Source: a candidate division CPR3 bacterium GWF2_35_18
GTDB lineage: Bacteria; Patescibacteriota; CPR3; GWF2-35-18
Length of the DNA: 64,000 bases
Assembly: GCA_001771135.1 (NCBI GenBank)
Contig: MESW01000008.1
Coordinates: forward strand, 87,630 to 151,629
Direction: 5' to 3'
Shown here: piece after piece, positions 19,309 to 44,202 of the stretch
How positions within the stretch are numbered: position 1 is the first letter of the stretch
How the letters are laid out: each line of letters opens with the position of its first letter
Notes under the pieces: model-generated
The model's database searches: none
Told to the model about the DNA's origin: nothing
The model's input: the letters and a program-made list of their open reading frames with translations, nothing else
Made by a program: the position numbers and the translations under genes

Positions 19309-19791
19309 TTATAACTTGTATCCGATTTCCCGTAAAAATTCTTTTCTTTTTTTAACATCTTTTTCATTTTCAATTCCCTGAGATTTTCCGCCATCAATCA
19401 CACCCATAATTCCCCTACCCAGCTTCGTTTCTGTGATAATAACTTCTACCGGATTGGCGGTGGCGCAGAAAATATGAACGACTTCCGGAATTTCTTTGAT
19501 GCGTGGTAAGACATTAATGGGAAAAGAATCTTTTAGAAAAATAATAAAGCTATGTCCGCAGGAAAGCGTTTTCATATTTTCGATTGAAAGATCAGTAAGC
19601 TTTTGATCCGTTCCGCTGTAACGAATTAAACATGGTCCTGATGCTTCGGCAAAGGCTAATCCAAACTTAATCCCTGGGATACAGTTAACGAGGGTTTCAT
19701 GTAGATCCTCAACCGTTTTAATAAAATGTGATTGTCCCAAAATAAGGTTTAAAGAATTTGGATTTTTGATTTTAACAAGTTGAAGATCCAT
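19309..19791 (-). CDS. Hypothetical protein (about 160 aa; possibly DUF355/adenosine-specific-kinase-like)
   Basis: Clean ORF between recG and tyrS. The family assignment is weak recall only. Confidence 0.4.
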
Positions 19792-19807: not shown

Positions 19808-20998
19808 TTACTTTAATTTTAGCTTTGCATAATTACGTTTTCCAGCTCTGATAATGGTTCCGTCTGAAATATTAATTTCTTGATGCCAATCGGAAATTAC
19901 TTTATCTTCTACCGTAACAGCAGATTGTTCTATTAATCTTTTAGCTTCCGATTTACTACTTACTAATTTACAATTCAGAATAAGATCCGTAATATTAGTT
20001 TTTTTGGTAGAAATTAAGCATTCCTTAATTTTATTCGGAATGCCTTTTTCTTGAACTACTCTTTCAAAAGTATTTTCCGCCTGTTGAGCTTCTTTCTTCG
20101 AATGATAAAATTCGGTAATTGTAAAAGCTAGTTTTTTCTTCAGATCCATCGGATTTTCTTCTCCACTCTGGAGTTTCTTTCTCATAACCTCAATTTTTTG
20201 AAGCTCTACATCTGTTAATAAAATAAAATAGTCGATGATCATCTCATCACTAATACGCATTAGTTTTCCGTACATATCCTTGGGATTTTCTGTTAAAGCA
20301 ACATAATTACTGTAAGACTTACTCATTTTGCGACCATCGAGTCCATTAATAATCGGTGTTGTGAGAACCCATTTTTTTTTGTTATGATAAAGTTGTTGTA
20401 GATTTCGTCCCATCATCATATTAAAAGTTTGATCTGTTCCTCCAAGTTCCAAGTCAACGTTCATAGCTACAGAATCATATCCTTGCAGAAGTGGATACAA
20501 AATTTCGTGAGTGAAAATAGGGAGATTTTTTTTAATCCTTTCCTGAAACATATCTCGCTCAATAAGTTGCTGGAGTGTAGTTTTGGCTGCAAGCTGAATG
20601 ATTTCAGGCATTGCTAGTTTATCAAGCCAGTCACCGTTTCGTTTAATCGTTATCTTTTTAAAATCGAGGATTTTACTAGCCTGAGACTTCCAGGTTTTAA
20701 AATTTTCTTCAATTTGAGCATCGGTGAGCATCGGTCTTGTAGAATCTCGGCCTGTCGGATCTCCGATTTTGACCGTTCCGTTTCCAATCAAAAGGATCAC
20801 TTCATGTCCAAGGTCTGCAAACTGTTTTAGTTTTCGTAAGACAACACTATGCCCTAGAGTCAAAAGTGAGCCAGTTGGATCTATTCCTAAATATAACTTG
20901 ATTTTTCTTTTTGCCATTAACTTTTTGAGAGTTTCTTTGTCGGGAAGAATCTGAGCTACTCCTCGAGTGAGGACTTCATCAATATTTATATTTTTCAT
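19808..20998 (-). CDS. tyrS: Tyrosyl-tRNA synthetase
   Basis: [13 protein letters not shown] (HIGH-type), KMSKS, C-terminal S4 domain. 396 aa. Confidence 0.9.
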
Positions 20999-21112
20999 TA
21001 TTTTCTCCTTTTTGAATCAGAATTAGTATATCACTAAATTAATTTTCTTTTAAGAATTTTGTTGTTAGAGCCATTTTGTTTTCATCTTTCAAATATTAGT
21101 TTAAAATATAGA

Positions 21113-21172
21113 GCAAGGGTAGGCACACGATACGTGTACGAGCGTAGTTTAATTGCCTACCCTTGCTTTTTT
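21113..21172. terminator. Hairpin between the unknown protein and tyrS (putative terminator/attenuator)
   Basis: 12-bp stem GCAAGGGTAGGC/GCCTACCCTTGC with a 30-nt loop. T6 follows on the plus strand and U-rich sequence on the minus strand. Confidence 0.4.
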
Positions 21173-21184
21173 GTCATTCCTTTC

Positions 21185-22375
21185 TTACATTCGTGAGAAT
21201 CTCGCGTGAGCTTCTTTAGCAAATTGACTCATGATTTTATAGTTTGCGTTATCATGAATTGAGGAGAGACCAAATGGAATTAAGGTTCTTCCTGTTCCTG
21301 GTTTGAGTAGACCAAACCAGATTTCGGGTGGAGAAATTATTTCCATTAATTTCCCTTGTTGTAATATTGTAGCGCATATCTGAGGTTTGATCACTGTAGG
21401 AATTGCTCCTACAGTCGATAACATCTTTTGTAAGCGAATGTTTTGAGGTTTATTTTTGAGGATAAACCGGATAAAACGAACGTTTTTGAAAAGGCGTTCA
21501 GAGATTTCCTCCAATGTTTGTAGATTAAGATTTTCTTGTGGGAAAACCTCAGCAAACTGGTTTCCATAGGTTTTGATTACGGTTTCATTTTGATTATGAC
21601 CGTTATTAATTGTTCTTGAGCTTATTTCTGGATAACTTTGGGTATTACTTAACCAGATGCCAGAAGCTAGAGTGGCGAGAAGATCGTTTTCGGAATCAAG
21701 ATAAAGAGGTTCAGAATACCACTTTAGAGCTTCAGAATTCCAGAAACGATATGAGATTTGAAAGAATTCTGTGAGAGGAACTCTTTTTGATACTTGCCAC
21801 GCAGTAGCGATGAGGGGTTCAAAACCAAAAGCTGTCATCATCAGATGGTTCATTGCGATAGACAGCATTTGCGGTCCTCCGGGGATAGTATAGCCATTGT
21901 TTACAACCGTGATTCCTGTACGAACTTCAGCCGAAAGTCCGATCGTGGTTTGCACTAGATTCGGATGTTCAAAGAGCTCCCTTATGCTAATGAGTATGGT
22001 TATAGAACCAGGAAAGTCCATAAATTGAGGATTTTTGGCGCAACGAACAACATCCCAGAATAGCTTATTTCTAGTAAGCTGAAAACTGGAAGTAGCAATT
22101 GGGGTATTGTCTGTTTCATCGTAGGAGATCCAGGTTAAGAGTTTCATTTCTCGCATTTCGGCTGCGATTTCTTCTGGTGTTTGTCCGGCCAGAATACCAT
22201 GTCCGTGATGTCCATAAACAGATTCAACTATTTGTTTATGATGAGAGGCAAAAAGTTTCAACTCCTGATTTTGAGTTAAGAGCTTGAGAGAGGAAACGGT
22301 ATGGAAATGCATTCCAGATGCGTTTGCTCTTTGAGTTAATCTTTCAATTTGAGTGGTTAAGATTCCAGTACCCAT
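21185..22375 (-). CDS. Hypothetical protein (396 aa) under T-box control; visibly higher G+C than its neighbours
   Basis: Uninterrupted ORF. AAGGAG RBS 8 nt upstream of the ATG. No family recognised by eye. Preceded by a canonical T-box leader. Confidence 0.6.
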   Translation of the reverse strand: MGTGILTTQIERLTQRANASGMHFHTVSSLKLLTQNQELKLFASHHKQIVESVYGHHGHGILAGQTPEEIAAEMREMKLLTWISYDETDNTPIATSSFQLTRNKLFWDVVRCAKNPQFMDFPGSITILISIRELFEHPNLVQTTIGLSAEVRTGITVVNNGYTIPGGPQMLSIAMNHLMMTAFGFEPLIATAWQVSKRVPLTEFFQISYRFWNSEALKWYSEPLYLDSENDLLATLASGIWLSNTQSYPEISSRTINNGHNQNETVIKTYGNQFAEVFPQENLNLQTLEEISERLFKNVRFIRFILKNKPQNIRLQKMLSTVGAIPTVIKPQICATILQQGKLMEIISPPEIWFGLLKPGTGRTLIPFGLSSIHDNANYKIMSQFAKEAHARFSRM

Positions 22376-22454: not shown

Positions 22455-22870
22455 AAAAAGCTCGTCCTTAAATAGAAAATTTTCTATTTAAGGACGAGCT
22501 TTTAATGAACTCGTGGTACCACCTTTAATTTCAGGTACAAAAAACACTCCAATTATGGAGTGTCCTGCATTTAATCATTTTATACCTGCTTGTTGATTCA
22601 AGTGCTTGACTTTGCAGTGACACTTTAGCCTTTGATAACGGAGGCATTCCGTCCCGCATTTAGTGCGAGAAGCTCCAGAGGGTATTTCGATTTTTTTACG
22701 TTCTGCAGGTTTTCAGGATTCCCTTGCTTTCTAAAAGTTACCGTAAAATTCTACTATTTCTCTTTCATCGCTTTTATACCGAATTGACTTAAATTGAACA
22801 TCAAAATAACGTTAATTCGGAGATATCCAACTACAATCTTATTATTTAATGAAGTTGAATATATAAAATT
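22455..22870 (-). promoter_or_regulatory. T-box riboswitch leader (tRNA-sensing antiterminator) upstream of the 396-aa unknown protein and tyrS
   Basis: Minus strand AAAUUAAAGGUGGUACCACGAG (complement of 22510-22531) against T-box consensus AAUUAGGGUGGNACCGCG. The antiterminator is AAGG[UGGUACC]ACGAG paired with CUCGU-CCUU, a 7-nt bulge. The terminator GCUCGUCCUUAAAUAG/CUAUUUAAGGACGAGC (22460-22499) is followed by U6. The Stem I start GCGAUGAAAGAGAAAUAGUAG carries a K-turn-like GA motif and an AGUA S-turn. Confidence 0.8.
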
Positions 22871-22876
22871 TGAAAT

Positions 22877-22905
22877 ACTATATCGGAATTTTTTCAATAT
22901 GTCAA
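22877..22905 (-). promoter_or_regulatory. Sigma70 promoter for the T-box leader
   Basis: Minus strand TTGACA-17nt-TATAGT: -35 is the complement of 22900-22905, -10 is the complement of 22877-22882. Lies about 100 nt before Stem I, so a nearer TSS is possible. Confidence 0.5.
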
Positions 22906-26884: not shown

Positions 26885-29011
26885 TTACTCTCTAATTTGT
26901 GCTTGATATTCTTTTTTGAGAGTTTGGATAATCTTATGTCTAATAAACTGAGTTTCGGTATTATTTAATGTTTTTTTAGAATTGCGATATTCAATAGTAA
27001 AAGTAACCGATTTTTTGTTATTTCCAAATTTAACGGAATAAAAGGGTCTTTCTTTCAGTGTAACGTTCGATATTTGTTCGTCGACTTCATCGATCTTTTG
27101 TCTTAAAGTTTCCACCGGAAGATTTCCACTCACAATGAAAGATAAATCTTCAAAAAGAGATGGGTAACGAGATAAGGGATGATATCTATTCTTCTCCGGA
27201 ATATTAACTAGCAGTGACTCAAAATCAAGATCAAAAACAGTTGCACATCCATTCATAGAGAAATTGTTACGGACTTCTTTATTCAAGTTTCCAAGGTAAC
27301 CTAAAATGATTTCGGTTGGTTTTTCTTTTGCCATTTGAACTTTCGATTTATACAAATTCCCGGTAGTATTATAAATAAGTAGTTTAATTTGGGCACTTTT
27401 ATTGGGGTCTAAAAATGGTTGTGGATTTTCTTGTAACACGAACTGATAATTAGTAATATCTAGATGATTGAGTAATGTTTCTACGATGCCTTTTACTTTG
27501 TAAAAAGTTTCATTTTGATTCTTACTATAATAAATTCCTGATATTTTCTTTTTTTCTTCAGGAAGTTTTTTTAGTGATAAAGAATGAATTTCTTTTCCTA
27601 TCTCAAAAATTCCGAATTCTTCAAAATTGCGACAATTCACCTCGGCTTTTTCCAAAACTGAAGGAATAATACTATCACGAACATATCGAAGTTCAGGAGA
27701 AATCGGATTTTTAATTGTAAGCATTTTTTGATGGTCGAGTTGAGCTTTCCGGTATAAATATTCACTAACGAAAGAATACGAATAAATTTCATGAAGACCT
27801 AAGAAGGATAGAATCGAAAGAATATTGTTAGAATTTTTTCTTTCAAGATCTTCAGTTACGGGATTGATAGCACGGGTTGGAAGTTGCGGAGTGATTTTGT
27901 CATAGCCATAAATTCTCGCAATTTCTTCGACAAAATCTTCTTCAATCTCAATATCATTGCGGAAGGAAGGAACGGCCAATTTTAATTGATCATCTTTTTC
28001 TTCAACGATTTCAAACTCAAGTCTTTTTAAGATCTTTTTAATTTCAGTATCTTTAATTTCCGTTCCAATTCTTCGTGTGATTTTTTGAGTATTTATAACG
28101 ACTGACTTCTGCTTTGTCTTTTGTGGATAGATATCAATAATTGAAGATACCAGTTTTGCTTTTGCATATTTTTCCAAGAGTTGAATGACATAAACGATCG
28201 CTGGATAAGTCAAATTTGGATCCTGTCCTTTTTCAAATCTTAACGTTGCTTCAGTGTGTAATCCAGTGATTTTTCCGGTTCTCCTTATTGAATATTCGTT
28301 AAAGTTGGCAGATTCAATGACAATTGTTTTGGTATCTTCAGAAATTTCGGTATTCGCGCCACCCATAATTCCGGCAATTCCGATTGCTTTCTCTAAGTCA
28401 GCAATGACAATCATATCTTTTTTCAATTCTCTCTGAATACCATCAAGAGTCGTGATCCTTTCGTTTCGTCTAGCGAGCCTCACAATAATTTCTCGAGTGT
28501 TCCCTTTTTCTTTAATTTTTTCATAATCAAAAGCATGTAAAGGTTGACCCAGTTCCAGCATTACGAAATTCGTAACGTCAACGACATTATTAATCGGCTT
28601 TACGCCGCAAGCAAGTAGTCTTTCTTGAAGCCATAAAGGTGACGGATTTATGTGAATATCTTTAAGAATGACGGCCGTGTACCGTTTACAAAGATTATCT
28701 TCTTTCAAAGTTACTTGTAGTGGTAAAGTCTTTTTGGGAAAAGTGAGTTTTTTCTTATTCAATTTTTCTAAAGGATTTTTGAAGTTTAACCTTTCAATGC
28801 AGGCAATTTCTCGAGCGATTCCGATATGAGAAAAGCAATCAGGTCGATGCGTCAAAGCTTTGTTTTCAATTTCCATGACCACATCTACTCCTCGAAAATT
28901 CTCAATCTTTTCCACCTCAGTTAAAGATACGGATACTCGTTGCGCGAGCTCTTCGGCTTTTCTTTTATCGATATCAACAAATTGTCCAATCCAGTTTAAT
29001 GAAAGTTTCAT
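26885..29011 (-). CDS. pheT: Phenylalanyl-tRNA synthetase beta subunit
   Basis: MKLSLNWIGQFVDI N-terminus and B3/4 and B5 domain layout. Directly downstream of pheS. Confidence 0.85.
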   Translation of the reverse strand: MKLSLNWIGQFVDIDKRKAEELAQRVSVSLTEVEKIENFRGVDVVMEIENKALTHRPDCFSHIGIAREIACIERLNFKNPLEKLNKKKLTFPKKTLPLQVTLKEDNLCKRYTAVILKDIHINPSPLWLQERLLACGVKPINNVVDVTNFVMLELGQPLHAFDYEKIKEKGNTREIIVRLARRNERITTLDGIQRELKKDMIVIADLEKAIGIAGIMGGANTEISEDTKTIVIESANFNEYSIRRTGKITGLHTEATLRFEKGQDPNLTYPAIVYVIQLLEKYAKAKLVSSIIDIYPQKTKQKSVVINTQKITRRIGTEIKDTEIKKILKRLEFEIVEEKDDQLKLAVPSFRNDIEIEEDFVEEIARIYGYDKITPQLPTRAINPVTEDLERKNSNNILSILSFLGLHEIYSYSFVSEYLYRKAQLDHQKMLTIKNPISPELRYVRDSIIPSVLEKAEVNCRNFEEFGIFEIGKEIHSLSLKKLPEEKKKISGIYYSKNQNETFYKVKGIVETLLNHLDITNYQFVLQENPQPFLDPNKSAQIKLLIYNTTGNLYKSKVQMAKEKPTEIILGYLGNLNKEVRNNFSMNGCATVFDLDFESLLVNIPEKNRYHPLSRYPSLFEDLSFIVSGNLPVETLRQKIDEVDEQISNVTLKERPFYSVKFGNNKKSVTFTIEYRNSKKTLNNTETQFIRHKIIQTLKKEYQAQIRE

Positions 29012-29017
29012 AATAAA

Positions 29018-30058
29018 TTAAAATTGTTTTAAAAATCTTAAATCTCCGGCATGAAAGTGTCGGATATCTTCAATACCGTATTTGAGCATGACGAGTCTAT
29101 CTAAACCCATTCCCCAGGCAAATCCGGAATATTTTTTTGGATCTAACCCAGCCATTTCGATTACTTTTGGATGTGTGAGTCCGCAGGGAATTAGCTCTAA
29201 CCATCCAGAATGTCCACAGGTCGAGCAAGGAATTTTATCTTTTTCCCCTTTTCCATCACACATGACACAAGAAACCAAAAATTCCAATCCCGGTTCTACA
29301 AAAGGAAAATATGAAGGTTGAATCTTATAACGTAGCTCTTTCTGGAAATATTCTTGTAAAAATGTCAAAATCGTACCGATTAGATGGCTGAGGTTTATAT
29401 TTTCACCGATATATAATCCCTCAACTTGATAAAAGGTGTGTTCATGATGGGCATCTGTGGCTTCATGTCTAAAACAACGGCCGGGAACAATAACGCCAAA
29501 AGGAGGCGTTTTCTCTTTCATAGCTCTATTTTGCATTGAAGAAGTATGGGTAATCGGAATTAGGTCATTTTCGGTCCAGAATGTATCCCACATGTCACGA
29601 GCAGGATGTTGTGGAGGTAAATTCAGACTCGTAAAGACATGGTAATCATCATCAATTTCATTTGGATTTAAGATCTCAAAACCCATTTTTTGGAATATTT
29701 TTTCTACCTGAAGTCGTACTTGAGTGATTGGATGTAAAGTTCCAATGTTAAATTTTTCTCCTGGGAGAGTAATGTCAAAAAAAGAATTTTCAGAGTTAGT
29801 TATTTGTCCTAAAGTTTTCTCTTTTTTGTCAAAAGCAATCGTAAGGGCGTTTTTAACTTTATTAATTAAAGGTCCAATCTCTCTTTTTTCGGCAATTGAA
29901 AGATCTGGGATATTCTTCATAAGTAAGGTTAATTTACCTTGTTTCCGACCCATATATTCAACCCTTAATGCTTCAAGCGCTTCTCCATTTGTGATTTTTT
30001 CAATTACGCTTATGGCCTGATTGTATATATTATCAATTTCATTTTTCATAAGAGGCAA
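29018..30058 (-). CDS. pheS: Phenylalanyl-tRNA synthetase alpha subunit (with Cys4 insertion)
   Basis: Class II motifs. FAWGMGLDRLVMLKYGIEDIR is motif 3. Insertion CVMCDGKGEKDKIPCSTCGHSG. Confidence 0.9.
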   Translation of the reverse strand: MPLMKNEIDNIYNQAISVIEKITNGEALEALRVEYMGRKQGKLTLLMKNIPDLSIAEKREIGPLINKVKNALTIAFDKKEKTLGQITNSENSFFDITLPGEKFNIGTLHPITQVRLQVEKIFQKMGFEILNPNEIDDDYHVFTSLNLPPQHPARDMWDTFWTENDLIPITHTSSMQNRAMKEKTPPFGVIVPGRCFRHEATDAHHEHTFYQVEGLYIGENINLSHLIGTILTFLQEYFQKELRYKIQPSYFPFVEPGLEFLVSCVMCDGKGEKDKIPCSTCGHSGWLELIPCGLTHPKVIEMAGLDPKKYSGFAWGMGLDRLVMLKYGIEDIRHFHAGDLRFLKQF

Positions 30059-31635: not shown

Positions 31636-33414
31636 TTATATATTTTTCTTCTCTGAGATCTCTTTTTGGATCTTTTGAATAAATTCTTCAACTTCCAGAT
31701 CATTCATTTTCTCTCCATTACGAAGCCTTAGAGAGATTTTTTTATTCTGTACCTCCCTATCGCCTAAAATCATCATGTATGGTATTTTTTGTGTAACCGC
31801 ATCACGGATTTTGGCTTGCATAGTGTCATCACGGCTATCAATCTCTGATCTAAGCCTGTTTTTCTGTAACTCTTGCGCGATCTCTTGCGCGTATTCTGCG
31901 TGATTAGAAGATATTGGAATGATTTTCACTTGTATTGGAGATAGCCATACTGGAAAGGCTCCAGCATAATGTTCAATCAAAATTCCCAGAGTTCTTTCGA
32001 TAGAACCGGTTAATCCGCGATGTAAGATAACTGGATGCTGCTCTTTCCCATTTTTATCGGTGTAAACAAGTTTTAATCTTTTTCCCATAAATAGGTCAAG
32101 TTGCAAGGTGCTCATTTGCCATTCACGTCCCAAAGAATCTTTAACCATATAATCGATTTTGGGACCGTAAAATGATGCTTCTCCTTGTGCTTTGACATAT
32201 TTTAGCTTGTTATCTTTGATGATCTTCTCGAGGAGTTTTCCGGCCTTTTGCCAAGTTTTGCTGTCGGCAATGTATTTTACCGCATCAGATGGATCTGCTA
32301 GCGATAAACGTACATAATATTCTTTGAGTCCAAAAGCTTCGAACATTTTGGCAACCATTTTGATACAGCGGGCAAACTCCGATTCTATCTGGTCTTCAGT
32401 CATTAAAATATGTGAATCATCAATGGAAAGTGCACGTACTCGCATTAGTCCGGAGAGCTCTCCGCTTTTTTCATATCGATAGCAAGTACCAGGTTCGGCG
32501 ACCCTATAAGGTAATTCACGATAACTTCGAGGGCGGCTTTCAAAGATCATATAGTGATGTGGACAATTCATGGGTTTCAAAACATATTCTTCACCATCAA
32601 TTCCAAAGGGTGCATACATTACGTCTTTGTAATGTTCCCAGTGACCAGTACGTTTATAAATTTCGGAACTGGCTATATGAGGGCAAGTAACATGTTGGAA
32701 GCCGTTTTCAACTTCAAGTTCATACTCATAGTTCAGAATTTCTTTTCGAATAATCGTTCCCTTAGGGGTTAAAAGCGGAAGACCTTTACCGATTGAATCA
32801 CTGATGACAAAAAGATCCAGCTCTTTACCCAATTTTCGGTGATCTCTCTCTTTCGCTTCTTTACGAACATAGAGAAATTGATCGAGCTCTTTTTGTGTGG
32901 GGAAAGCCGTTCCATAAATACGAGTTAACATTTTATTCTTTTCATCACCGTGCCAGTATGCTCCAGCGATAGAAAGCAACTTGAATGGACCGATTTTTCC
33001 GGTTGATTCAACATGTGGACCGGAGCAGAGATCTACCATGGAATTTTTTTGTCCTTCTTTACCTGTCCAGTAAATAGTTATTTTGGAGCCTTTTTTGGCA
33101 ATTTCATCAATCCATTCCTGTTTATATGGATTATCTTCAAAAAGTTTTCGAGCTTCTTTTTCTGAAACCTCCATTTTGGTAATGGGTAGGTCAAGATCAA
33201 TAATCTCCTTCATTCTTTTTTCGATTTTGGGAAAGTCGGATTCGGAAATTTTGTAAGAAGCAGGATCAAAATCATTGTAAAATCCGTCTTCGGTGGCTGG
33301 TCCCATAGCAAGATGGACTTTTGGAAAAAGCTCTTTTACAGCTTGATGCATGATATGTTCTGCCGAATGTCTCATGGCTTGCAGTTCAATTGGATTTTGT
33401 TTTTTTACTGACAT
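31636..33414 (-). CDS. thrS: Threonyl-tRNA synthetase (lacks N-terminal TGS domain)
   Basis: DHRKLGKELDLF...KPMNCPHH...GLMRVRALSIDDSHI are collinear with E. coli ThrRS. Editing-domain RHSAEHIMHQA motif. 592 aa. Confidence 0.9.
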   Translation of the reverse strand: MSVKKQNPIELQAMRHSAEHIMHQAVKELFPKVHLAMGPATEDGFYNDFDPASYKISESDFPKIEKRMKEIIDLDLPITKMEVSEKEARKLFEDNPYKQEWIDEIAKKGSKITIYWTGKEGQKNSMVDLCSGPHVESTGKIGPFKLLSIAGAYWHGDEKNKMLTRIYGTAFPTQKELDQFLYVRKEAKERDHRKLGKELDLFVISDSIGKGLPLLTPKGTIIRKEILNYEYELEVENGFQHVTCPHIASSEIYKRTGHWEHYKDVMYAPFGIDGEEYVLKPMNCPHHYMIFESRPRSYRELPYRVAEPGTCYRYEKSGELSGLMRVRALSIDDSHILMTEDQIESEFARCIKMVAKMFEAFGLKEYYVRLSLADPSDAVKYIADSKTWQKAGKLLEKIIKDNKLKYVKAQGEASFYGPKIDYMVKDSLGREWQMSTLQLDLFMGKRLKLVYTDKNGKEQHPVILHRGLTGSIERTLGILIEHYAGAFPVWLSPIQVKIIPISSNHAEYAQEIAQELQKNRLRSEIDSRDDTMQAKIRDAVTQKIPYMMILGDREVQNKKISLRLRNGEKMNDLEVEEFIQKIQKEISEKKNI

Positions 33415-36868: not shown

Positions 36869-37948
36869 TCAGCTTACTTCTGGGATAAACTGTTCCAGAA
36901 TCTGAGCCATTTTTTCTAGAGAAGAGATAGTTACATATTCATTAGTTGCATGAGCGTTTGCAGTATTTGGTTCCGTCAGAATTACTGGAATTTTTTTGGA
37001 AGTAAAGAATCTGGCATCAGATGCTGCTGGATCACGAGTGATTGAAACTTTTCTTTTCAAAACTTTCTCAGCAATTTCATGATAAATTTTGAGATATTGA
37101 TTATTTTTATCGGTAAAAAATGGATTACCATCTACAGTTTCCTTAGGTTTTATTCCAGTTAAATTTGTAATTTTATTAAAAATTTCTTTTTTTGTGTATT
37201 TGGCTGGATAACGGATATCACATTCAGCTGATGCGTAATCAGCGATTTTGTTACTAGCCTCTCCTCCATAGATTTTTCCGATATTAAAAGAGATGCACCA
37301 ATCTTCTAAGCTTTGTGGGTTTTTAAAAGTTTTACGTAGTTTTATACAGGCTAACATTAATTTATCAATAGCGCTTTCTCCGAGGTATGGTCTAGAAGCA
37401 TGACAAGCGACTCCTTTGGTTTCAAGTGTAAAACTCAAAACTCCTTTTTCTTCAACGATAATATCGAAGTTATGTCCTCCGTCTGGAATAAAGGTAATAT
37501 CGGTTTTGTATTTTTCTTTCTCAAGGAGATATTTGACGCCGTCAAATCCGCCTATTTCTTCATCAGTTGTGAGCATTAGGGCAAAAGAAAGTTTGGGATT
37601 TTGTTGATAAAGTTTTTTCATGATGACCATCATGGTAGCGCAAGCCCCTTTCATATCACCAGCGCCTCGAGCGATCAGCTTATCCCCTTCAATTTTTGGT
37701 TTAAATTGATCCTTCTCTGCTTCGATGACATCAAGATGTCCGTTTAGAATTAGTTTTGGATGTTTTGTTTCTTTAGTTAAGATCATTACGGAGGGTTTAT
37801 CGTTGGAAACGTATTTTTTGATGATCATTTTGGTGTCTTTGAAGTAATCGGCAGCAACATCAACAACTTCTTTGAGTCTTTCAGGTTTACTTCTAATTGA
37901 TTCAATCTGAATAAGTTTTTTAGTTAATTCTAAAATTTCTTTTTTCAT
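36869..37948 (-). CDS. M20-family metallopeptidase (DapE/ArgE-like deacylase)
   Basis: LNGHLDVIEAE and ARGAGDMKGA metal-binding motifs of the M20 family. Confidence 0.75.
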   Translation of the reverse strand: MKKEILELTKKLIQIESIRSKPERLKEVVDVAADYFKDTKMIIKKYVSNDKPSVMILTKETKHPKLILNGHLDVIEAEKDQFKPKIEGDKLIARGAGDMKGACATMMVIMKKLYQQNPKLSFALMLTTDEEIGGFDGVKYLLEKEKYKTDITFIPDGGHNFDIIVEEKGVLSFTLETKGVACHASRPYLGESAIDKLMLACIKLRKTFKNPQSLEDWCISFNIGKIYGGEASNKIADYASAECDIRYPAKYTKKEIFNKITNLTGIKPKETVDGNPFFTDKNNQYLKIYHEIAEKVLKRKVSITRDPAASDARFFTSKKIPVILTEPNTANAHATNEYVTISSLEKMAQILEQFIPEVS

Positions 37949-38837
37949 AATTTTCTCCTTTAATTATTAGACATGCTCCAAGGCATGCTCCATGATCTAT
38001 GTTGGAAATTACGATATCTTTAAAATGGAAAAATTTAAAGGTATTTTTTTTATATTTTTCAATAGCTGGCGTCAGAAATTTTTCAGCTGATTTTTTCAAA
38101 GATCCATTAATAATAATTCTTTCTGGATTATAAAAATATGATACTATTTGAAGAAAATTATATAAATGCTCTGTAAAAATCAAAATCGCCCTTTGTGCAT
38201 CTGGGTCATCATTTTTACTTTTAAAAATTTGTTTGGCATCTTTATTTTGTCTGCTAATTTCTTGGTATATTTTTGCCAAACCTTTTCCAGATAAAAAACT
38301 ATCAATAATTGTTTCTTTGTCATGTAGCTCTGGAACTAAATATTTCATTTGGGATATTTCTCCCAGGTTATTTGAATAACCTCCAATAAGTCGTCCGTGT
38401 GAATAAAAAGATAATCTAATTCCTGTTCCTAAATTTATAAGTACAAAGCTTTCAGTTTTTTTCCCTAGTCCAAAAACTGCTTCTGCTTTTGCCATTGCGT
38501 TTACATCATTTTCTAAGATGATCTTTCTTCTAAATTTCTTTTCCCATTTTTTTACGAGAGGATAATTAACATATCCTCCCAAAAGAGAACTGTAGGTGAT
38601 TTTTCCCTTATTCACTACACAATTGAAACTAATGCCGATAACTTTTACTGAATCTTCAATTCTTTTTTGAATTAATTCTTCTAATATTTCTAAAAATTGT
38701 AGACTATTATGCTTAAATTGATCTGTTGAGATCTTCTCACTATCGATTAGATTATATCTATTATCAAAAGAACAGATCTCGATTTTTGTCCCACCAATGT
38801 CAATTCCAAGAAAATAGGGTTTATTTAATTTTTTCAT
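37920..38837 (-). CDS. ROK/BadF-type sugar kinase-like ATPase
   Basis: YFLGIDIGGTKIEI N-terminal ASKHA motif. Confidence 0.6.
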   Translation of the reverse strand: MKKLNKPYFLGIDIGGTKIEICSFDNRYNLIDSEKISTDQFKHNSLQFLEILEELIQKRIEDSVKVIGISFNCVVNKGKITYSSLLGGYVNYPLVKKWEKKFRRKIILENDVNAMAKAEAVFGLGKKTESFVLINLGTGIRLSFYSHGRLIGGYSNNLGEISQMKYLVPELHDKETIIDSFLSGKGLAKIYQEISRQNKDAKQIFKSKNDDPDAQRAILIFTEHLYNFLQIVSYFYNPERIIINGSLKKSAEKFLTPAIEKYKKNTFKFFHFKDIVISNIDHGACLGACLIIKGENYEKRNFRIN

Positions 38838-39954
38838 AGTAGAAAGGTTTTTTTTCTTTGTCGATATCTAAAAATACTTTTGTGAATTTTCCAAAAGATC
38901 TTTTTAAATCTATTAAATATTTTAAATCGAATGTATTGTTATTACTCAAAACTGGAACACTATGGTACGGTAGTTTATCAATATCTTTACGAATTGGAAT
39001 AATTCCTAGTCTATTGAATTTTGGAGATACAGATAAAGGTAAGCTATGTGGTACTGTTTTTTGAAGATAATCAATATCATCTCTAACCTTCAAATAAGCA
39101 AAATAGCTAAAGATACATTTATGTGTTTTTTCTTTAAGTGAATTTCTTATTTCTGAAGCCTTTGGAGAAATCTCATCGTCAGATAATTTTGTATTATAAA
39201 CATCCATTAATATTTTCTCTTCATTATCAGTAGTAAATACAATTTTATAAATTACCGGAAATACTGAATTGTATTTTTCTAAAAAATCTGTATTTCTATC
39301 TTCATAAAGTTTTTTGTATTCAGAGATTCTTTTATCCATTTTTTCAGAGAAATCAGGAACAGTTTTTTCCATCTCCGATAAATCAATAATATTCACACTT
39401 TTTGATAATTTTAATTGACTGTTTAATTCTTCTAAAAAAACCCTATATGCTATCCAGTTAGCTTTTGGTACTCCAGTAAATGGTCCAAACCCTCCTTCTG
39501 TAAAAAGTGTAATTCTAGCCCCATTCTTGTAAATATTCGTAATAAGTTTGGTGATAACTGAAAGTCTATGTAGAGCAAGGACTTCTCCCATGTCAGGAAA
39601 GATTCTATTGGTTTTCAATGGAACAGGGATTTTAAACGGAAAACCTAAGATTGTAAATTGTATAGGTAGATTTTTACTCGTAAAATATGAAATTCTTTCT
39701 ATCCATTTTTTAATATTAGAATTAATAAATTCCACTGGTCCAAAACGATAGTTTTCATCTTGAAATATTGATAATATCTTTTCTTCAATTGAAGTGCCTG
39801 TAATTTGGGGAATTGGAATTAATATTCTATTTTCTAGAAAATCTGCAATGTCATTGATACTGACTATTTTTTCTTGAATAAAATTGTTCCGTAAATTTTT
39901 ATTTGAAAGCTCTTCAAAGTCAATTGAAGGATAAACATGAGGATTTGATTTCAT
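38821..39954 (-). CDS. Hypothetical protein (377 aa); distant paralog of the 41664-42728 protein
   Basis: Shared core blocks with the other copy: PIQFTILGFPFKIPVPLK / PVPITISFAVGSRMPNLLK and GARITLFTEGGFGPFTGVP / GMQILLFDEATLFAGVIPG. Confidence 0.5.
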   Translation of the reverse strand: MKSNPHVYPSIDFEELSNKNLRNNFIQEKIVSINDIADFLENRILIPIPQITGTSIEEKILSIFQDENYRFGPVEFINSNIKKWIERISYFTSKNLPIQFTILGFPFKIPVPLKTNRIFPDMGEVLALHRLSVITKLITNIYKNGARITLFTEGGFGPFTGVPKANWIAYRVFLEELNSQLKLSKSVNIIDLSEMEKTVPDFSEKMDKRISEYKKLYEDRNTDFLEKYNSVFPVIYKIVFTTDNEEKILMDVYNTKLSDDEISPKASEIRNSLKEKTHKCIFSYFAYLKVRDDIDYLQKTVPHSLPLSVSPKFNRLGIIPIRKDIDKLPYHSVPVLSNNNTFDLKYLIDLKRSFGKFTKVFLDIDKEKKPFYYEKIK

Positions 39955-40733
39955 AAGATTTCCTTAAAAATATTATCTAAATTTTCTAAAACTATATCAG
40001 CTTTTTGTTTTACTTGTGAAGTGGCAGTTCTTAAAGCAACATTAAGTCCAAAATTTTTGTCAAAAATAGGCAGATCATCATCATCATGAGCAAAGACCAT
40101 GATTTCATTTTTTGAAATGTTTAAATGTGTTCCTAAAATAAAAGCCGCTTGTTTTTTAGAAACTCCAGGATTAACAAAATTAATGTTTCCATTGTCATGA
40201 ACAGCGTTTGATTTTATGGGAGGCTTAGGGTTATTAAAAGTTATAATGGCGATTTGAGAAGGATGTTTTCTATAAGCCAACTCAAAAAGATTCTCAATAT
40301 TTCGATAAATTTTAATCTTAATATTTGGAATTGATTCAAGAAATTCGTCTTTTCTATTAGGTTTAATAAATGCATAAAGTTGGGTGTGATTTGGATCCCA
40401 AAAGCCGATAAACTTGATTTCGTTATGATAACGATAAATATAGTTTTCGATTCTTTCAATCTCGATATTTTCTAGAGACGAAAAAAAGAGATTCTTTCTT
40501 TTGCTATCACAAATACAGCTGCCATCAGATATTATTAATGGAGCATTTAATTTTAGGTCATTTAGCTCATGATGAGTTGTTAAGAATCCTCTTCCTGTAG
40601 CTACAGTACAGTAAATTCCTTTATCTTGGATTTTTTTAATAATTTTTTTAGTTTGAATGTCAATTTTTACATGTTTTTGTTTTAAAGTACCATCAATGTC
40701 AAAAACACATAATCTAATATTTTTTTTATTCAT
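39951..40733 (-). CDS. HAD-superfamily hydrolase (Cof-like, subfamily IIB)
   Basis: Motif I LCVFDIDGTL. C-terminal cap and GDDDND-like motif. Confidence 0.75.
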   Translation of the reverse strand: MNKKNIRLCVFDIDGTLKQKHVKIDIQTKKIIKKIQDKGIYCTVATGRGFLTTHHELNDLKLNAPLIISDGSCICDSKRKNLFFSSLENIEIERIENYIYRYHNEIKFIGFWDPNHTQLYAFIKPNRKDEFLESIPNIKIKIYRNIENLFELAYRKHPSQIAIITFNNPKPPIKSNAVHDNGNINFVNPGVSKKQAAFILGTHLNISKNEIMVFAHDDDDLPIFDKNFGLNVALRTATSQVKQKADIVLENLDNIFKEIL

Positions 40734-41517
40734 AATTTATTAATTTTTCAAGAAATAGTGGCAAATCTTTCGGTCCTTCAATCTGTTCTATAGCCTGATT
40801 TTTCAGTTTAGTATTACCTTTTCCAACCAATACGAAATTTTCTGCAAATTCGGCCATGGAAAGATCGTTATCATCATCACCAAAAACCATGATTTCTTTA
40901 GTTTTAATTTTATAATTACTACAAAGTTTCTGAATTCCAGATTTTTTAGAAATATCCTTATTTACAAAGTTTAAAGTATCATCGTTATAAGTAGCGTTAT
41001 ATTGACCATTTAATTCCAACTTCTTTATGGTTTTAATAAATAGCAGAGATGGTTTATCTTTGGGAAGATCTTCAATAAAGCAATTATTATTTGAGTAAAA
41101 TTTATATTTTAAATAAGGATATTCTTTAACAAGATTCTCTTTTCCCTTTTCAGAAATAGCAATATGCAGTGTATGATCTTTAGGGTGCCAATAACCGTTA
41201 AAAATGATTGATTCTCTATATTTTTTAATGAAATCAGCTGCTTGTTCGACTATTTCCTTTTCTAAAGGGGAAATAAAAAGGGTATTTTTGTTATTATCAA
41301 TCATGCAGCTGCCATCCAGAATAACGTATGGAGCGCTATAAGTTATTTTTGATATTGCGTTAATAGTCGTATCATGTCCGCGTCCAGTGGCGACAGTATA
41401 GAAAATATTTTCTTTTTGTAGTTTGTGTATAGTTTCAATTAGCTTTTTTGATATCGGCTTTCCCTTTTCTTTCAAGGTTCCGTCAATATCAAAAACACAA
41501 AGTTTAATTTTATTCAT
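40726..41517 (-). CDS. HAD-superfamily hydrolase (Cof-like), tandem paralog
   Basis: MNKIKLCVFDIDGTLKE. FGDDDNDLSMAE motif. Confidence 0.75.
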   Translation of the reverse strand: MNKIKLCVFDIDGTLKEKGKPISKKLIETIHKLQKENIFYTVATGRGHDTTINAISKITYSAPYVILDGSCMIDNNKNTLFISPLEKEIVEQAADFIKKYRESIIFNGYWHPKDHTLHIAISEKGKENLVKEYPYLKYKFYSNNNCFIEDLPKDKPSLLFIKTIKKLELNGQYNATYNDDTLNFVNKDISKKSGIQKLCSNYKIKTKEIMVFGDDDNDLSMAEFAENFVLVGKGNTKLKNQAIEQIEGPKDLPLFLEKLINYE

Positions 41518-41663: not shown

Positions 41664-42728
41664 TTACTTGCCGAGGTAATAAAATACGAACGGTACACCT
41701 TGTGTACCAAATTCGTTGGGAGAAATTCGAACCGGGATAGCGCCAGGGTGTTCACGTTGGAGCCGATATTCCGGAACAATATGGACGACGAGTCGTCCAT
41801 TCGCATCTCGATAAACCACTGGCATCCCATGATTAGTTAAAACCTTGGTGACATCAATGACCACTCTCTCACTTTTGTCGGTGATGCATGCGTTGATGTG
41901 GTTTTGGAAGCCGAGATCATTTAAGAGTCGTTCAAAGAGCCGGTTCTGTTTGCGGAGTGCCAGAGTGCGTAATACCCGTTCAGACAGAGTGATTGCCGTT
42001 TGCCATGTTTCTTCACCGATGAGCATTCGTAGTACAAGATAGTCTTTGGCTCGATTGGTATAGAGAGGATCCATGGCATCGGGATTGGTCATCCCTGGAT
42101 AACAGCAGGCCATGGCGTAGGTAATGGCATCATGACTAGACATGGGGATATGTTGAGCCTGTTCCCAGGGAAGCATTTCTGGAGTCATGGGGATAATGGT
42201 GATAGGCGCTCCGATTGCAGTTATGATTTGATTGAAATACTGAAGTTGTCTTTCAACATCTTCAGCTACAATTCCAGGAATCACTCCTGCAAATAGGGTT
42301 GCTTCGTCAAAGAGTAAGATTTGCATTCCAGGTTTATAGATTCTTTGGATCTTTTCGTTGATGAAGCGGAATACCCAAGCCATGTGGAGCCAACCTAAAG
42401 TTGGATAAGCAATCAGTTCTTTAAACTTGAGAAGATTCGGCATCCGTGATCCGACCGCAAAGGAAATTGTAATGGGTACCGGTTGCTGTAGATTAATTGC
42501 CTGTTGAATAACATCCCAAAGACGGATTTTTTCATCGTCGGAGAGTTTAATGCAATTTTCAGTGTGTCCGAGGATGATTTTTAGGACAGCCATAGCAGTG
42601 TCCGTTTCCTTGGGTAAATGGTATTGATCCATCCGCCAGCCAAGGAGACTTTCCAAAAAGGCAACTTCGGTTGCCAATGTGGTCATTCCATTGGTGTGCG
42701 GCAGTATGATGGATGGTCGAGCGTTCAC
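41664..42728 (-). CDS. Hypothetical protein (354 aa), GC-richer; paralog of 38821-39954
   Basis: GTG start with AGGAGGTG SD 5 nt upstream. Composition clearly differs from the flanking AT-rich genes. Confidence 0.55.
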   Translation of the reverse strand: MNARPSIILPHTNGMTTLATEVAFLESLLGWRMDQYHLPKETDTAMAVLKIILGHTENCIKLSDDEKIRLWDVIQQAINLQQPVPITISFAVGSRMPNLLKFKELIAYPTLGWLHMAWVFRFINEKIQRIYKPGMQILLFDEATLFAGVIPGIVAEDVERQLQYFNQIITAIGAPITIIPMTPEMLPWEQAQHIPMSSHDAITYAMACCYPGMTNPDAMDPLYTNRAKDYLVLRMLIGEETWQTAITLSERVLRTLALRKQNRLFERLLNDLGFQNHINACITDKSERVVIDVTKVLTNHGMPVVYRDANGRLVVHIVPEYRLQREHPGAIPVRISPNEFGTQGVPFVFYYLGK

Positions 42729-43733: not shown

Positions 43734-44171
43734 TTAATCTTGTTTATGTTGCAAGCGATAGCTGCGATGTTCGAAGGCTTTTTTTACTTCTAGAAGTAAC
43801 GATCGTTGATTGTAATATTGTCCCATAAACCAATGTATGCCCATTCCCATGGCTTCTCGGCCAATAGTCCAGTCTGTCCCGAATTCTGGATCAGTTGGTA
43901 CAACCGCTACTGTGAATCGATGTAAACCTTTTAGATCTGCCTTGATCTTTTGGAGCAGGGCGATTGTTTTTGGATGATTCATTTTTTCCACAATGATAAA
44001 GATAACGTCAGCTTTGCAGATGTCATCGTCCGTCATAGTTTCATAATGAACCATTTTTACGGTATGCTGGAATTCTTTCACAATGAGTGTTTCTAAGTCA
44101 TGTGCCAGCACACTTCGGTGACCGTGAAGTATCGTTATGTTGAGATGAGAGGAATTAACATTATCGTTCAT
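43734..44171 (-). CDS. Hypothetical small protein, receiver (CheY)-like topology
   Basis: 145 aa with an alternating hydrophobic-strand and helix pattern. Paralogous to the next ORF. Confidence 0.4.
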   Translation of the reverse strand: MNDNVNSSHLNITILHGHRSVLAHDLETLIVKEFQHTVKMVHYETMTDDDICKADVIFIIVEKMNHPKTIALLQKIKADLKGLHRFTVAVVPTDPEFGTDWTIGREAMGMGIHWFMGQYYNQRSLLLEVKKAFEHRSYRLQHKQD

Positions 44172-44202
44172 TTACGGAAATCCTTTCTGTCTGAAGTGGT
44201 TA

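What the first reader, a model, noticed from the sequence alone, without database searches (positions are those of the whole stretch)
21185..22375. Unknown, compositionally foreign 396-aa protein as the regulated cargo of a T-box
No Walker, Rossmann, PLP or class I/II aaRS motifs are visible. G+C is visibly higher than the neighbouring tyrS and recG, suggesting horizontal acquisition, yet the gene is wired into tRNA-charging surveillance. It is a candidate novel amino-acid metabolic or salvage enzyme.
Basis: inference. Interest (0 to 1): 0.6.

Follow-up and report, generated by a model that had tools for sequence, protein, structure and literature searches.

The report
Tyrosine T-box controls rare GNAT-like enzyme
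A real but almost unique gene in a candidate-phylum (CPR3) bacterium sits directly behind a tyrosine-sensing T-box riboswitch. Its few distant relatives in other bacteria sit behind phenylalanine-sensing leader peptides, next to enzymes that racemise and deacylate N-acyl amino acids, so it probably belongs to a starvation-induced salvage route for aromatic amino acids.

Summary
The ORF (21185-22375, minus strand, 396 aa) and the T-box in front of it (22487-22777, Rfam 100 bits) are real. The specifier is UAC (Tyr).

The "compositionally foreign" claim fails. G+C is about 1 SD above the window's genes and codon usage is native-like.

The protein has no Pfam, NCBIfam or PDB sequence match. An exhaustive search of 1.84 billion representatives found only five full-length relatives (20-25% identity).

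- Four relatives with DNA lie directly behind Phe-rich leader-peptide attenuators (FFF to FFFFF plus terminator).
- They sit in clusters with an NSAR/OSBS-type racemase and an M20 ArgE/DapE-type deacylase.
- A fifth is flanked by two AstE/AspA-type deacylases.
- A distant paralog in the same clusters lies behind Ile/Val/Leu-rich leaders.

Best reading: a divergent GNAT-like N-acyltransferase module of an N-acyl (D-to-L) aromatic amino-acid salvage route, switched on by uncharged tRNA-Tyr. The regulation and the family-level wiring are shown; the chemistry is inferred. No racemase partner is seen in this window, and tyrS just downstream may share the T-box.

The parts
22877..22905 (-). Sigma-70-like promoter (TTGACA, 17 nt spacer, TATAGT; 11 of 12 matches), about 100 nt upstream of the T-box
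   Evidence: This is a consensus match only.
22487..22777 (-). T-box leader RNA (Stem I, Stem III, antiterminator)
   Evidence: Rfam RF00230, 100 bits against a gathering score of 93, full-length model match.
22682..22684 (-). Specifier trinucleotide UAC (Tyr) within the specifier loop GAAAUACC
   Evidence: It falls in the codon columns of the Rfam alignment. TGAAATAC is invariant in the T-boxes of two related CPR tyrS loci. One of those T-boxes is followed by tRNA-Tyr(GUA), and the other heads an operon that ends in tyrS.
22490..22525 (-). T-box sequence and antiterminator (AAGGUGGUACCACGAG...CUCGUCCUU), with the UGGU bulge at 22518-22521 that would pair with the tRNA 3' ACCA end
   Evidence: The 3' strand overlaps the 5' strand of the terminator.
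22456..22503 (-). Intrinsic terminator of the T-box (20-bp stem followed by a U-run)
21185..22375 (-). 396-aa protein of a very rare family with a GNAT-like fold; first gene behind the T-box
21113..21166 (-). 14-bp hairpin plus an interrupted U-tract between the ORF and tyrS; possible (partial) terminator
   Evidence: Free energy -29.7 kcal/mol, z = -4.5. Unique in the window.
19808..20998 (-). tyrS (class I tyrosyl-tRNA synthetase), 186 nt downstream on the same strand. Either co-regulated by read-through or served by its own weak promoter-like site (21025-21053).
   Evidence: Pfam tRNA-synt_1b, 223 bits. Promoter scan.
19309..19791 (-). Gene of the adenosine-specific kinase family, 16 nt after tyrS; probably in the same transcript as tyrS
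   Evidence: Pfam PF04008, 245 bits.

Best explanation
The gene encodes a highly divergent enzyme with a GNAT-like (probably two-lobed) acyltransferase fold. It belongs to a tiny family whose job is to help supply aromatic L-amino acids when they run short.

Mechanism in this CPR3 genome:
1. Transcription starts at the promoter near 22880-22905.
2. The T-box leader binds tRNA-Tyr through UAC:GUA pairing.
3. If the tRNA is uncharged, its free ACCA end pairs with the UGGU bulge and stabilises the antiterminator. The 20-bp terminator does not form.
4. RNA polymerase then reads into the ORF, and possibly onward into tyrS.

Inferred chemistry: the protein N-acylates (for example N-succinylates) tyrosine or phenylalanine, most plausibly the D-isomer or another form that cannot be used directly. 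The product can then be racemised and deacylated to the L-amino acid. This would be the transferase step of the known pathway made of a GNAT succinyltransferase, an NSAR/OSBS racemase and an L-desuccinylase.

What is shown: the T-box, its Tyr specifier, the gene order, the rarity of the family, and the family-wide association with aromatic aa-tRNA-sensing leaders and with N-acyl-amino-acid racemase and deacylase genes.

What is inferred: the GNAT fold (from a low-confidence model), the acyl-transfer reaction, the substrate, and the D-to-L direction.
For: (1) T-box.
- Score above the Rfam gathering threshold, with an overlapping antiterminator and terminator.
- The UAC specifier is conserved in T-boxes of related CPR loci. 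One of those T-boxes precedes tRNA-Tyr (L017); the other heads an operon ending in tyrS (L027).
- pheS, pheT and thrS in the same window have no T-box, so T-boxes are not attached to every synthetase gene in this genome.

(2) Family.
- Five full-length relatives in all. Three (P0004-P0006; E 1e-6 to 3e-5) came from the exhaustive search of 1.84 billion representatives, and two more from the profile search.
- One more member came from a genome scan.
- 21 columns are invariant across the seven sequences.

(3) Independent regulatory link.
- All four gammaproteobacterial-type homologs with DNA are immediately preceded by a short ORF with a run of Phe codons plus a GC-rich terminator:
  - MKKIKNTNFFFFFHPTFCGAIF
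  - MQSANWTFFFYFFTPKTAGS
  - MESLVLSTVRFFFNPKFGGVLW
  - MKIAPNNFWFFFFNPTRAGS
- The four leaders align at 71% column identity. One scores 49 bits (E 1.8e-7) against the Rfam Phe_leader model.

(4) Gene context.
- The neighbours are an NSAR/OSBS-type enolase (TIGR01928, 239 and 226 bits against a cutoff of 200.65) and M20 ArgE/DapE-type deacylases.
- In a fifth locus the gene is flanked on both sides by AstE/AspA-type deacylases, which are not homologous to M20.
- The three-enzyme D-to-L pathway is documented in bioRxiv 10.1101/2022.03.03.481873.

(5) Paralog.
- A 501-aa neighbour is a distant paralog (hhalign probability 96.6%, E 6e-10).
- This neighbour and its 503-aa counterpart lie behind Ile/Val/Leu-rich leaders: MIHSASQNIIVLLITP and ...SIIFVLFIILA.
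- This fits amino-acid-specific modules feeding a shared racemase and deacylase.

(6) Fold.
Against: - The structural model is poor (mean pLDDT 48, pTM 0.44).
- No GNAT HMM matches any member.
- No canonical Q/RxxGxG/A acyl-CoA motif is visible in the alignment.
- The CPR3 copy is the most divergent member (20-24% identity). It lacks the Tyr that the other five aligned members carry in the motif-B-like 'LYxxGF' stretch.
- No NSAR/OSBS homolog lies in this 64-kb window. The only M20 deacylase is 15 kb away, in an unrelated-looking cluster.
- A transferase without a racemase has no obvious supply function.
- The T-box may primarily serve tyrS. Related CPR loci carry other, unrelated cargo between a Tyr T-box and tyrS.
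- D-isomer specificity is pure inference.
Confidence: 0.42

Rival explanations
1. It belongs to the same pathway but carries out a different step. The protein would act on N-acyl aromatic amino acids in some other way, for example as an amide synthase using an acyl-adenylate from the PaaK-like ligase, as a hydrolase, or as a specificity or regulatory subunit for the racemase or deacylase. It would not be an acyl-CoA N-acyltransferase.
For: - No CoA-binding motif and no GNAT HMM hit.
- A PaaK-like AMP ligase lies in one cluster (L010).
- A separate 356-aa protein with weak similarity to GNAT_ablB lies in another cluster (L011) and could be the real transferase there.
- The invariant residues are mostly His, Arg and aromatic, and concentrate in the N-terminal lobe.
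Against: - The only fold signal is GNAT.
- The ligase and the extra GNAT-like gene are each present in only one locus, whereas the family gene is the constant partner of the deacylase.
Confidence: 0.23
2. It is a passenger gene. The Tyr T-box exists to regulate tyrS. The ORF is an unrelated, lineage-specific insertion between the leader and tyrS, and its function has nothing to do with tyrosine.
For: - tyrS lies 186 nt downstream on the same strand.
- Related CPR loci place other, unrelated genes between a Tyr T-box and tyrS: an 80-aa ORF plus tRNA-Tyr, a methyltransferase and a MetE-like gene in one, and an unknown 360-aa protein plus a Cys/Met PLP enzyme in another.
- The ORF is absent from 80 related tyrS loci.
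Against: - Homologs in unrelated bacteria sit directly behind Phe leader-peptide attenuators in 4 of 4 loci. The link to aromatic aa-tRNA sensing is therefore a property of the family, not of this locus.
- A strong hairpin with a U-tract separates the ORF from tyrS, and tyrS has its own promoter-like site.
Confidence: 0.15
3. It is an aminoacyl-tRNA-dependent transferase of the double-GNAT type (like FemXAB or leucyl/phenylalanyl-tRNA-protein transferase). It would use Tyr-tRNA or Phe-tRNA as the acyl donor, for example to modify a peptidoglycan precursor or a small molecule.
For: - The size is right for a two-lobed GNAT-like protein, and there is no CoA motif.
- The gene is next to tyrS and divergent from a class A penicillin-binding protein.
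Against: - T-boxes and leader-peptide attenuators switch genes on when charged tRNA is scarce. That is the wrong logic for an enzyme that consumes charged tRNA. Surveyed T-box cargo is supply-side: synthetases, biosynthesis and transport (PMC2494555).
- The conserved partners are N-acyl-amino-acid racemases and deacylases, not cell-wall genes.
- No FemAB Pfam match.
Confidence: 0.08

Closest known systems
[quoted passage not shown]
   Same: - Homologs of the window protein sit in clusters with an NSAR/OSBS-type enolase (TIGR01928 above its cutoff) and ArgE/DapE-type M20 deacylases.
- The fold signal is GNAT.
- The pathway's purpose is to supply L-amino acids.
   Different: - No detectable sequence similarity to any GNAT HMM.
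- About 396 aa; canonical single-domain GNATs are much shorter (the GNAT chains matched are roughly 120-215 residues).
- No canonical acyl-CoA motif.
- The homolog clusters are controlled by aa-tRNA-sensing leaders. I found no description of such control for the known pathway in the literature searched.
- In the CPR3 window, no racemase is present.
AstA arginine N-succinyltransferase with AstE succinylglutamate desuccinylase (AST pathway)
   Same: - One homolog is flanked by two AstE/AspA-family deacylase genes.
   Different: - No Pfam AstA match.
- The regulatory signals point to aromatic amino acids, not arginine.
- The AST pathway is catabolic, whereas the leaders here imply a supply function.
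Canonical T-box-regulated genes (aaRS, amino-acid biosynthesis, transporters; e.g. B. subtilis tyrS)
   Same: - Transcription-attenuation T-box with Stem I, a UAC specifier, a UGGU bulge and a terminator.
- tyrS is in the same gene string.
   Different: - The first regulated gene is a protein of no known family.
- The host is a CPR3 (candidate phyla radiation) bacterium.
- The base after the specifier is C, not the usual purine.
Enterobacterial pheA / pheST leader-peptide attenuators (Rfam RF01859)
   Same: The homolog loci have short leader ORFs with 3-5 consecutive Phe codons. They also have four mutually complementary segments and a terminator.
   Different: - The regulated gene is the unknown family, not pheA or pheST.
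- Only one of the four reaches 49 bits, below the gathering score of 55. The Rfam searches run over the other three gave no Phe_leader hit, at cut-offs of E 0.01-0.1.
FemXAB / L,F-transferase (aa-tRNA-dependent GNAT-fold transferases)
   Same: - Comparable size.
   Different: - No sequence match.
- The regulatory logic and the gene neighbours argue against a role that consumes charged tRNA.

Membership tests
T-box leader (Rfam RF00230) | Covariance-model score at or above the curated gathering threshold over the full model | tested here: met
   100 bits against 93, model positions 1-219, window 22487-22777 on the minus strand.
T-box leader (Rfam RF00230) | Specifier loop in Stem I that presents a codon matching the regulated function | tested here: met
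   - The loop is GAAAUACC, with UAC in the codon columns.
- The same loop occurs in two related CPR T-boxes.
- One of those precedes tRNA-Tyr(GUA). The other heads an operon ending in tyrS.
- The base after the codon is C rather than the usual purine.
T-box leader (Rfam RF00230) | Conserved T-box sequence with a UGGN bulge in an antiterminator that is mutually exclusive with an intrinsic terminator | tested here: met
   The AAGGUGGUACCACGAG...CUCGUCCUU element overlaps the 5' arm of a 20-bp terminator stem followed by a U-run.
T-box leader (Rfam RF00230) | Antitermination dependent on uncharged tRNA | not testable with these tools
   Needs in vitro transcription with charged and uncharged tRNA-Tyr.
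GNAT acyltransferase superfamily | GNAT fold (beta1-alpha1-alpha2-beta2-beta3-beta4-alpha3-beta5-alpha4-beta6) | tested here: inconclusive
   - The model built from a six-sequence alignment has pLDDT 48 and pTM 0.44.
- The order of secondary-structure elements in residues 36-150 fits the GNAT pattern.
GNAT acyltransferase superfamily | Match to a GNAT sequence profile (Pfam Acetyltransf_*, NCBIfam) | tested here: not met
   - No Pfam hit at E <= 1 for P0001, P0004, P0005, P0006, nor at E <= 0.001 for the L011 member.
- No NCBIfam hit.
- No PDB sequence hit with the family profile.
GNAT acyltransferase superfamily | Motif A (Q/R-x-x-G-x-G/A), the pyrophosphate-binding loop for acyl-CoA | tested here: not met
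   I read alignment A2 and found no such motif before either candidate alpha3 helix. Only D-x-x-x-S/T and E-G-N-x-S stretches are present.
GNAT acyltransferase superfamily | Acyl-CoA-dependent N-acyl transfer | not testable with these tools
   Needs an enzyme assay.
[quoted passage not shown] | NSAR/OSBS-subfamily enolase encoded with the transferase | tested here: not met
   - In the window: tblastn with the NSAR-like proteins finds nothing in 64 kb.
- In the homolog loci L010 and L011 the feature is met: TIGR01928 scores 239 and 226 bits against a cutoff of 200.65.
- L092 carries a C-terminal fragment of an MR_MLE enolase.
[quoted passage not shown] | N-acyl-L-amino-acid deacylase encoded with the transferase | tested here: inconclusive
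   - Window: an M20 ArgE/DapE-type gene lies at 36869-37948. It is 33% identical to the M20 next to the L009 homolog (E 1e-51), but it is 15 kb away and in another cluster.
- Homolog loci: M20 is adjacent in L009, L010 and L011. AstE/AspA-type genes flank the homolog in L093.
[quoted passage not shown] | Transferase specific for D-amino acids | not testable with these tools
   Needs an enzyme assay with D- and L-Tyr and Phe.
Phe leader-peptide attenuator (Rfam RF01859), tested in the homolog loci | Score at or above the Rfam gathering threshold | tested here: not met
   - L010: 49 bits against 55, E 1.8e-7.
- L011: no hit at E <= 0.1.
- L009 and L092: no hit at E <= 0.05.
Phe leader-peptide attenuator (Rfam RF01859), tested in the homolog loci | Short ORF with consecutive Phe codons that overlaps alternative hairpins and ends in an intrinsic terminator just before the regulated gene | tested here: met
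   Met in 4 of 4 loci. The leaders are homologous, with 71% column identity. The folds show segments that can pair in alternative ways.
FemXAB / aa-tRNA-dependent transferases | Sequence membership (Pfam FemAB) and a cell-wall precursor context | tested here: not met
   [not shown]

The most novel reading that the evidence does not exclude
The family and its 501/503-aa paralogs may be interchangeable specificity modules of a previously unrecognised salvage system regulated by tRNA charging. Each module would sit behind the attenuator for its own amino acid: Phe leader, Ile/Val/Leu leader, or Tyr T-box. Each would channel D- or otherwise blocked amino acids through N-acylation, NSAR racemisation and deacylation into the L-pool. 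In the CPR3 bacterium, which probably cannot make tyrosine, the module would be wired with tyrS so that scavenged tyrosine and the synthetase rise together.
Probability: 0.3. Interest if true: 0.75.

Novelty: new variant of a known kind. Interest (0 to 1): 0.6.

Why it matters
- **A rare family gains a context.** An orphan protein, with five full-length relatives among 1.84 billion cluster representatives, acquires a functional context from two unrelated cis-regulatory mechanisms that both read aromatic aa-tRNA charging. Evidence of that kind is unusually strong for an unannotated family.
- **A possible new fold branch.** If the chemistry is right, a GNAT-like branch too divergent for sequence profiles is added. 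It would also show that the D-to-L (N-acyl) amino-acid conversion route is deployed as a starvation response with amino-acid-specific modules.
- **T-boxes in CPR bacteria.** The work documents Tyr T-boxes in CPR bacteria with variable cargo between the leader and tyrS. A full-text search found no paper that mentions T-box riboswitches together with the candidate phyla radiation.
- **Relevance to CPR lifestyle.** It bears on how organisms with minimal biosynthesis obtain aromatic amino acids.

Tried and rejected
- **Single-sequence AlphaFold:** useless (pLDDT 32).
- **Word-indexed protein search:** the single protein found only itself. Two profile rounds added only P0007 and P0008.
- **Genome scan:** With a 4-sequence subset it gave one locus.
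- **Metagenome scan with the family alignment:** nothing.
- **PDB sequence searches with the protein and the profile:** only noise.
- **Internal duplication, N-half against C-half:** none detectable.
- **AFDB Foldseek:** library unavailable.
- **Compositional foreignness:** rejected.
- **Hairpin after the ORF as a dispersed repeat:** rejected; it is unique in the window.
- **Second T-box or other Rfam element between the ORF and tyrS:** none.
- **Other proteins as family members:** the L027 360-aa T-box cargo, the L093 715-aa protein and the L011 356-aa GNAT_ablB-like protein are all unrelated.
- **Rfam elements in L093, L092 and L009:** none at E <= 0.05.
- **NSAR, the 501/503-aa paralogs or an AMP ligase in the window:** none. 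The single AMP-ligase hit falls inside tyrS.
- **T-box directly upstream of tyrS in 80 related CPR loci:** motif absent in nearly all.
Full report
**1. What is in the sequence**

- The minus strand carries an ATG-initiated 396-codon ORF at 21185-22375. GGAG lies 7 nt before the start codon.
- Upstream on the same strand, Rfam finds one T-box leader at 22487-22777. It scores 100 bits against a gathering score of 93 and matches the full model. It is the only T-box in the 64-kb window.
- A near-consensus promoter (TTGACA, 17 nt spacer, TATAGT) lies about 100 nt further upstream.
- The 3' end of the T-box has the conserved AAGGUGGUACCACGAG element. The 3' arm of its antiterminator overlaps the 5' arm of a 20-bp terminator at 22456-22503, which is followed by a U-run.
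- The ORF is the first gene after this switch, 80 nt downstream, with nothing in between.
- Downstream come, in order:
  - a strong, unique hairpin with an interrupted U-tract at 21113-21166 (-29.7 kcal/mol, z = -4.5);
  - a weak promoter-like site;
  - tyrS at 19808-20998 (Pfam tRNA-synt_1b, 223 bits);
  - a gene of the adenosine-specific kinase family.

**2. Specifier**

- In the Rfam alignment the 3' side of the specifier loop reads GAAAUACC. UAC falls in the codon columns.
- Among 80 metagenomic loci whose TyrRS is 55-68% identical, three carry a T-box upstream: L017 at 104 bits, and L027 at 85 bits (E 6e-19) with its duplicate L040.
- TGAAATAC is invariant when these T-boxes are aligned with the window T-box.
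- The L017 T-box is followed by an 80-aa ORF and tRNA-Tyr(GUA). The L027 T-box heads an operon that ends in tyrS.
- I therefore read the specifier as Tyr. The base after it is C rather than the usual purine.
- pheS, pheT and thrS in the window have no T-box.

**3. The composition claim**

- The ORF's G+C is 0.394 and its GC3 is 0.330. Both are higher than tyrS (0.346) and recG (0.336).
- Both are only about 1 SD above the mean of the 50 genes in the window (0.353 +/- 0.037 and 0.278 +/- 0.057).
- The excess over tyrS sits more in codon position 2, which reflects amino-acid composition, than in position 3.
- The deviation in synonymous codon usage ranks 33rd of 50 genes, similar to tyrS.
- 'Compositionally foreign' is not supported.
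- The gene is nevertheless absent from all 80 related CPR tyrS loci. Lineage-specific gain remains plausible on distribution alone.

**4. What the protein is related to**

- There is no Pfam, NCBIfam or PDB sequence match.
- The word-indexed search of 5.8 billion proteins returned only the protein itself. It is annotated as a hypothetical protein of candidate division CPR3 bacterium GWF2_35_18. All the contigs read that carry it are the same population.
- The exhaustive HMMER search of 1.84 billion cluster representatives found three full-length relatives (E 1e-6 to 3e-5, 26-30% identity over the matched stretches). Profile searching added two more, and a genome scan added one from a Gammaproteobacteria MAG.
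- The seven sequences align end to end with 21 invariant columns. These are mostly His, Arg, Gly, Pro and aromatic residues.
- None of the five members scanned has a Pfam hit.

**5. Context of the relatives: the key evidence**

- **Phe leaders.** In all four loci of the gammaproteobacterial type that have DNA (only L011 is labelled Gammaproteobacteria; the other three are assigned by similarity), the gene is immediately preceded by a short ORF with a run of Phe codons and a GC-rich hairpin plus T-run:
  - L010: MKKIKNTNFFFFFHPTFCGAIF
  - L011: MQSANWTFFFYFFTPKTAGS
  - L009: MESLVLSTVRFFFNPKFGGVLW
  - L092: MKIAPNNFWFFFFNPTRAGS

  - The four leaders are homologous, with 71% column identity.
  - They contain four mutually complementary segments typical of attenuators.
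  - The L010 leader scores 49 bits (E 1.8e-7) on the Rfam Phe_leader model, just under the gathering score.
  - So relatives in unrelated bacteria are wired to Phe-tRNA charging by a mechanism different from a T-box.
- **Neighbouring enzymes.**
  - An enolase-superfamily protein passes the TIGR01928 (OSBS/NSAR-type) cutoff in L010 and L011, at 239 and 226 bits against 200.65.
  - M20 ArgE/DapE-type deacylases are adjacent in L009, L010 and L011.
  - L010 also has a PaaK-like AMP ligase.
  - In a fifth, GC-rich locus (L093), the gene is flanked on both sides by AstE/AspA-family deacylases. This is a different fold with the same kind of chemistry.
- **A paralog with its own leader.**
  - The 501-aa gene at the head of the L010 cluster is a distant paralog of the family (hhalign probability 96.6%, E 6e-10).
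  - The 503-aa counterpart in L011 matches more weakly (46%).
  - Both are preceded by leader peptides rich in Ile, Val and Leu plus terminators: MIHSASQNIIVLLITP and ...TRVLSIIFVLFIILA.
  - Two paralogs in one cluster, each behind an attenuator for a different class of amino acid, fit substrate-specific modules of a pathway that supplies amino acids.

**6. Fold**

- With the six-sequence alignment, AlphaFold2 reaches only pLDDT 48 and pTM 0.44. Its best regions are residues 35-115 and 270-360.
- The top 50 Foldseek hits (E down to 2.4e-5) are likewise all GNAT-fold proteins.
- By eye, the C-terminal stretch NKPxNIxxQxxLYxxGFxPxG resembles GNAT motif B. No canonical motif A is present.
- I treat the GNAT assignment as likely but unproven.

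**7. Mechanism proposed**

- *Shown:* a Tyr-specific, transcription-attenuation T-box controls entry into the ORF.
- *Inferred from established T-box behaviour:* uncharged tRNA-Tyr pairs with UAC and with the UGGU bulge, stabilises the antiterminator and allows read-through.
- *Inferred from family context and fold:* the product is an N-acyl (probably N-succinyl) transferase-like enzyme acting on tyrosine or phenylalanine. It would feed a racemase and deacylase route that yields the L-amino acid.
- *Unresolved:*
  - The window has no NSAR homolog. Its only M20 deacylase (36869-37948; 33% identical to the L009 partner) is 15 kb away.
  - The CPR3 copy is the most divergent member.
  - Read-through of the hairpin could place tyrS under the same switch.
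  - Related CPR lineages carry unrelated cargo between a Tyr T-box and tyrS, so a passenger status cannot be excluded from this locus alone. The Phe leaders of the homologs argue against it.

**8. Comparison, novelty, verdict**

- The regulatory element is a standard T-box in an unusual host.
- The cargo is a new, extremely rare family. At fold level it is GNAT-like, and by context it is closest to the transferase step of the D-to-L conversion pathway or to AstA/AstE-type chemistry.
- It fails the sequence-level membership tests for GNAT. I file it as 'works like' a GNAT, not as a proven member.
- I rate it a new variant of a known kind.
- Interest is 0.6. The convergent regulation (Tyr T-box, Phe leaders, BCAA leaders on a paralog) makes a concrete hypothesis that can be tested directly.

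Noticed in passing
L010 2-49 and 93-139; L011 6956-7062: The 501/503-aa genes that head the NSAR/M20 clusters are preceded by leader peptides rich in Ile, Val and Leu, plus terminators (...TRVLSIIFVLFIILA*, MIHSASQNIIVLLITP*). These look like ilv/leu-type attenuators. The L010 protein is a distant paralog of the family (hhalign probability 96.6%).
   Followed up: partly
window 36869-41517 (minus strand): A low-G+C block: four genes at 37920-41517 have G+C 0.27-0.29, and the adjoining M20 gene has 0.344. It encodes an M20 ArgE/DapE-type deacylase, a ROK kinase, a protein of the DIT1/PvcA family (tyrosine isonitrile or dityrosine family; weak match, 76 bits Pfam) and two HAD phosphatases. The M20 is 33% identical to the deacylase next to the L009 homolog. 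A second tyrosine-related gene in the window is notable, but no link to the finding was shown.
   Followed up: partly
window 41664-42686 (minus strand): This 340-aa ORF has the highest G+C in the window (0.453; GC3 0.44) and the third most deviant codon usage. It has no Pfam or NCBIfam match. It is a better candidate for 'compositionally foreign' than the gene in the finding.
   Followed up: partly
L017 1458-2155; L027 2387-6185 (related CPR metagenome loci): Tyr T-boxes with the same GAAAUAC specifier loop head operons with variable cargo. In L017 the cargo is an 80-aa ORF plus tRNA-Tyr(GUA), a methyltransferase and a MetE-like gene before tyrS. In L027 it is an unknown 360-aa protein plus a Cys/Met-metabolism PLP enzyme before tyrS. 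Most of the 80 related loci have no T-box motif upstream of tyrS.
   Followed up: partly
window 26885-30049 and 31636-33414 (minus strand): pheT, pheS and thrS lie in the same window without any T-box. T-box control in this genome is therefore selective for the ORF and tyrS locus.
   Followed up: yes
window 43734-44637 (minus strand): Two short genes (about 145 aa each) have the most deviant codon usage in the window. They may be highly expressed or foreign; they were not identified.
   Followed up: no
L093 430-2577 and L011 12844-14834: Further unannotated or unusual neighbours of family members. One is a 715-aa protein with no Pfam match, at the head of the AstE/AspA-flanked locus. In L011, a 356-aa protein with weak similarity to GNAT_ablB is followed by a DDAH-like amidinohydrolase.
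   Followed up: partly
protein P0002 (110 aa, from the representative library): A fragment 85% identical to residues 139-192 of the window protein is fused to a repeated 'SEEHTSELQSLTNLV' sequence. It looks like an assembly or gene-calling chimera rather than a second species.
   Followed up: no
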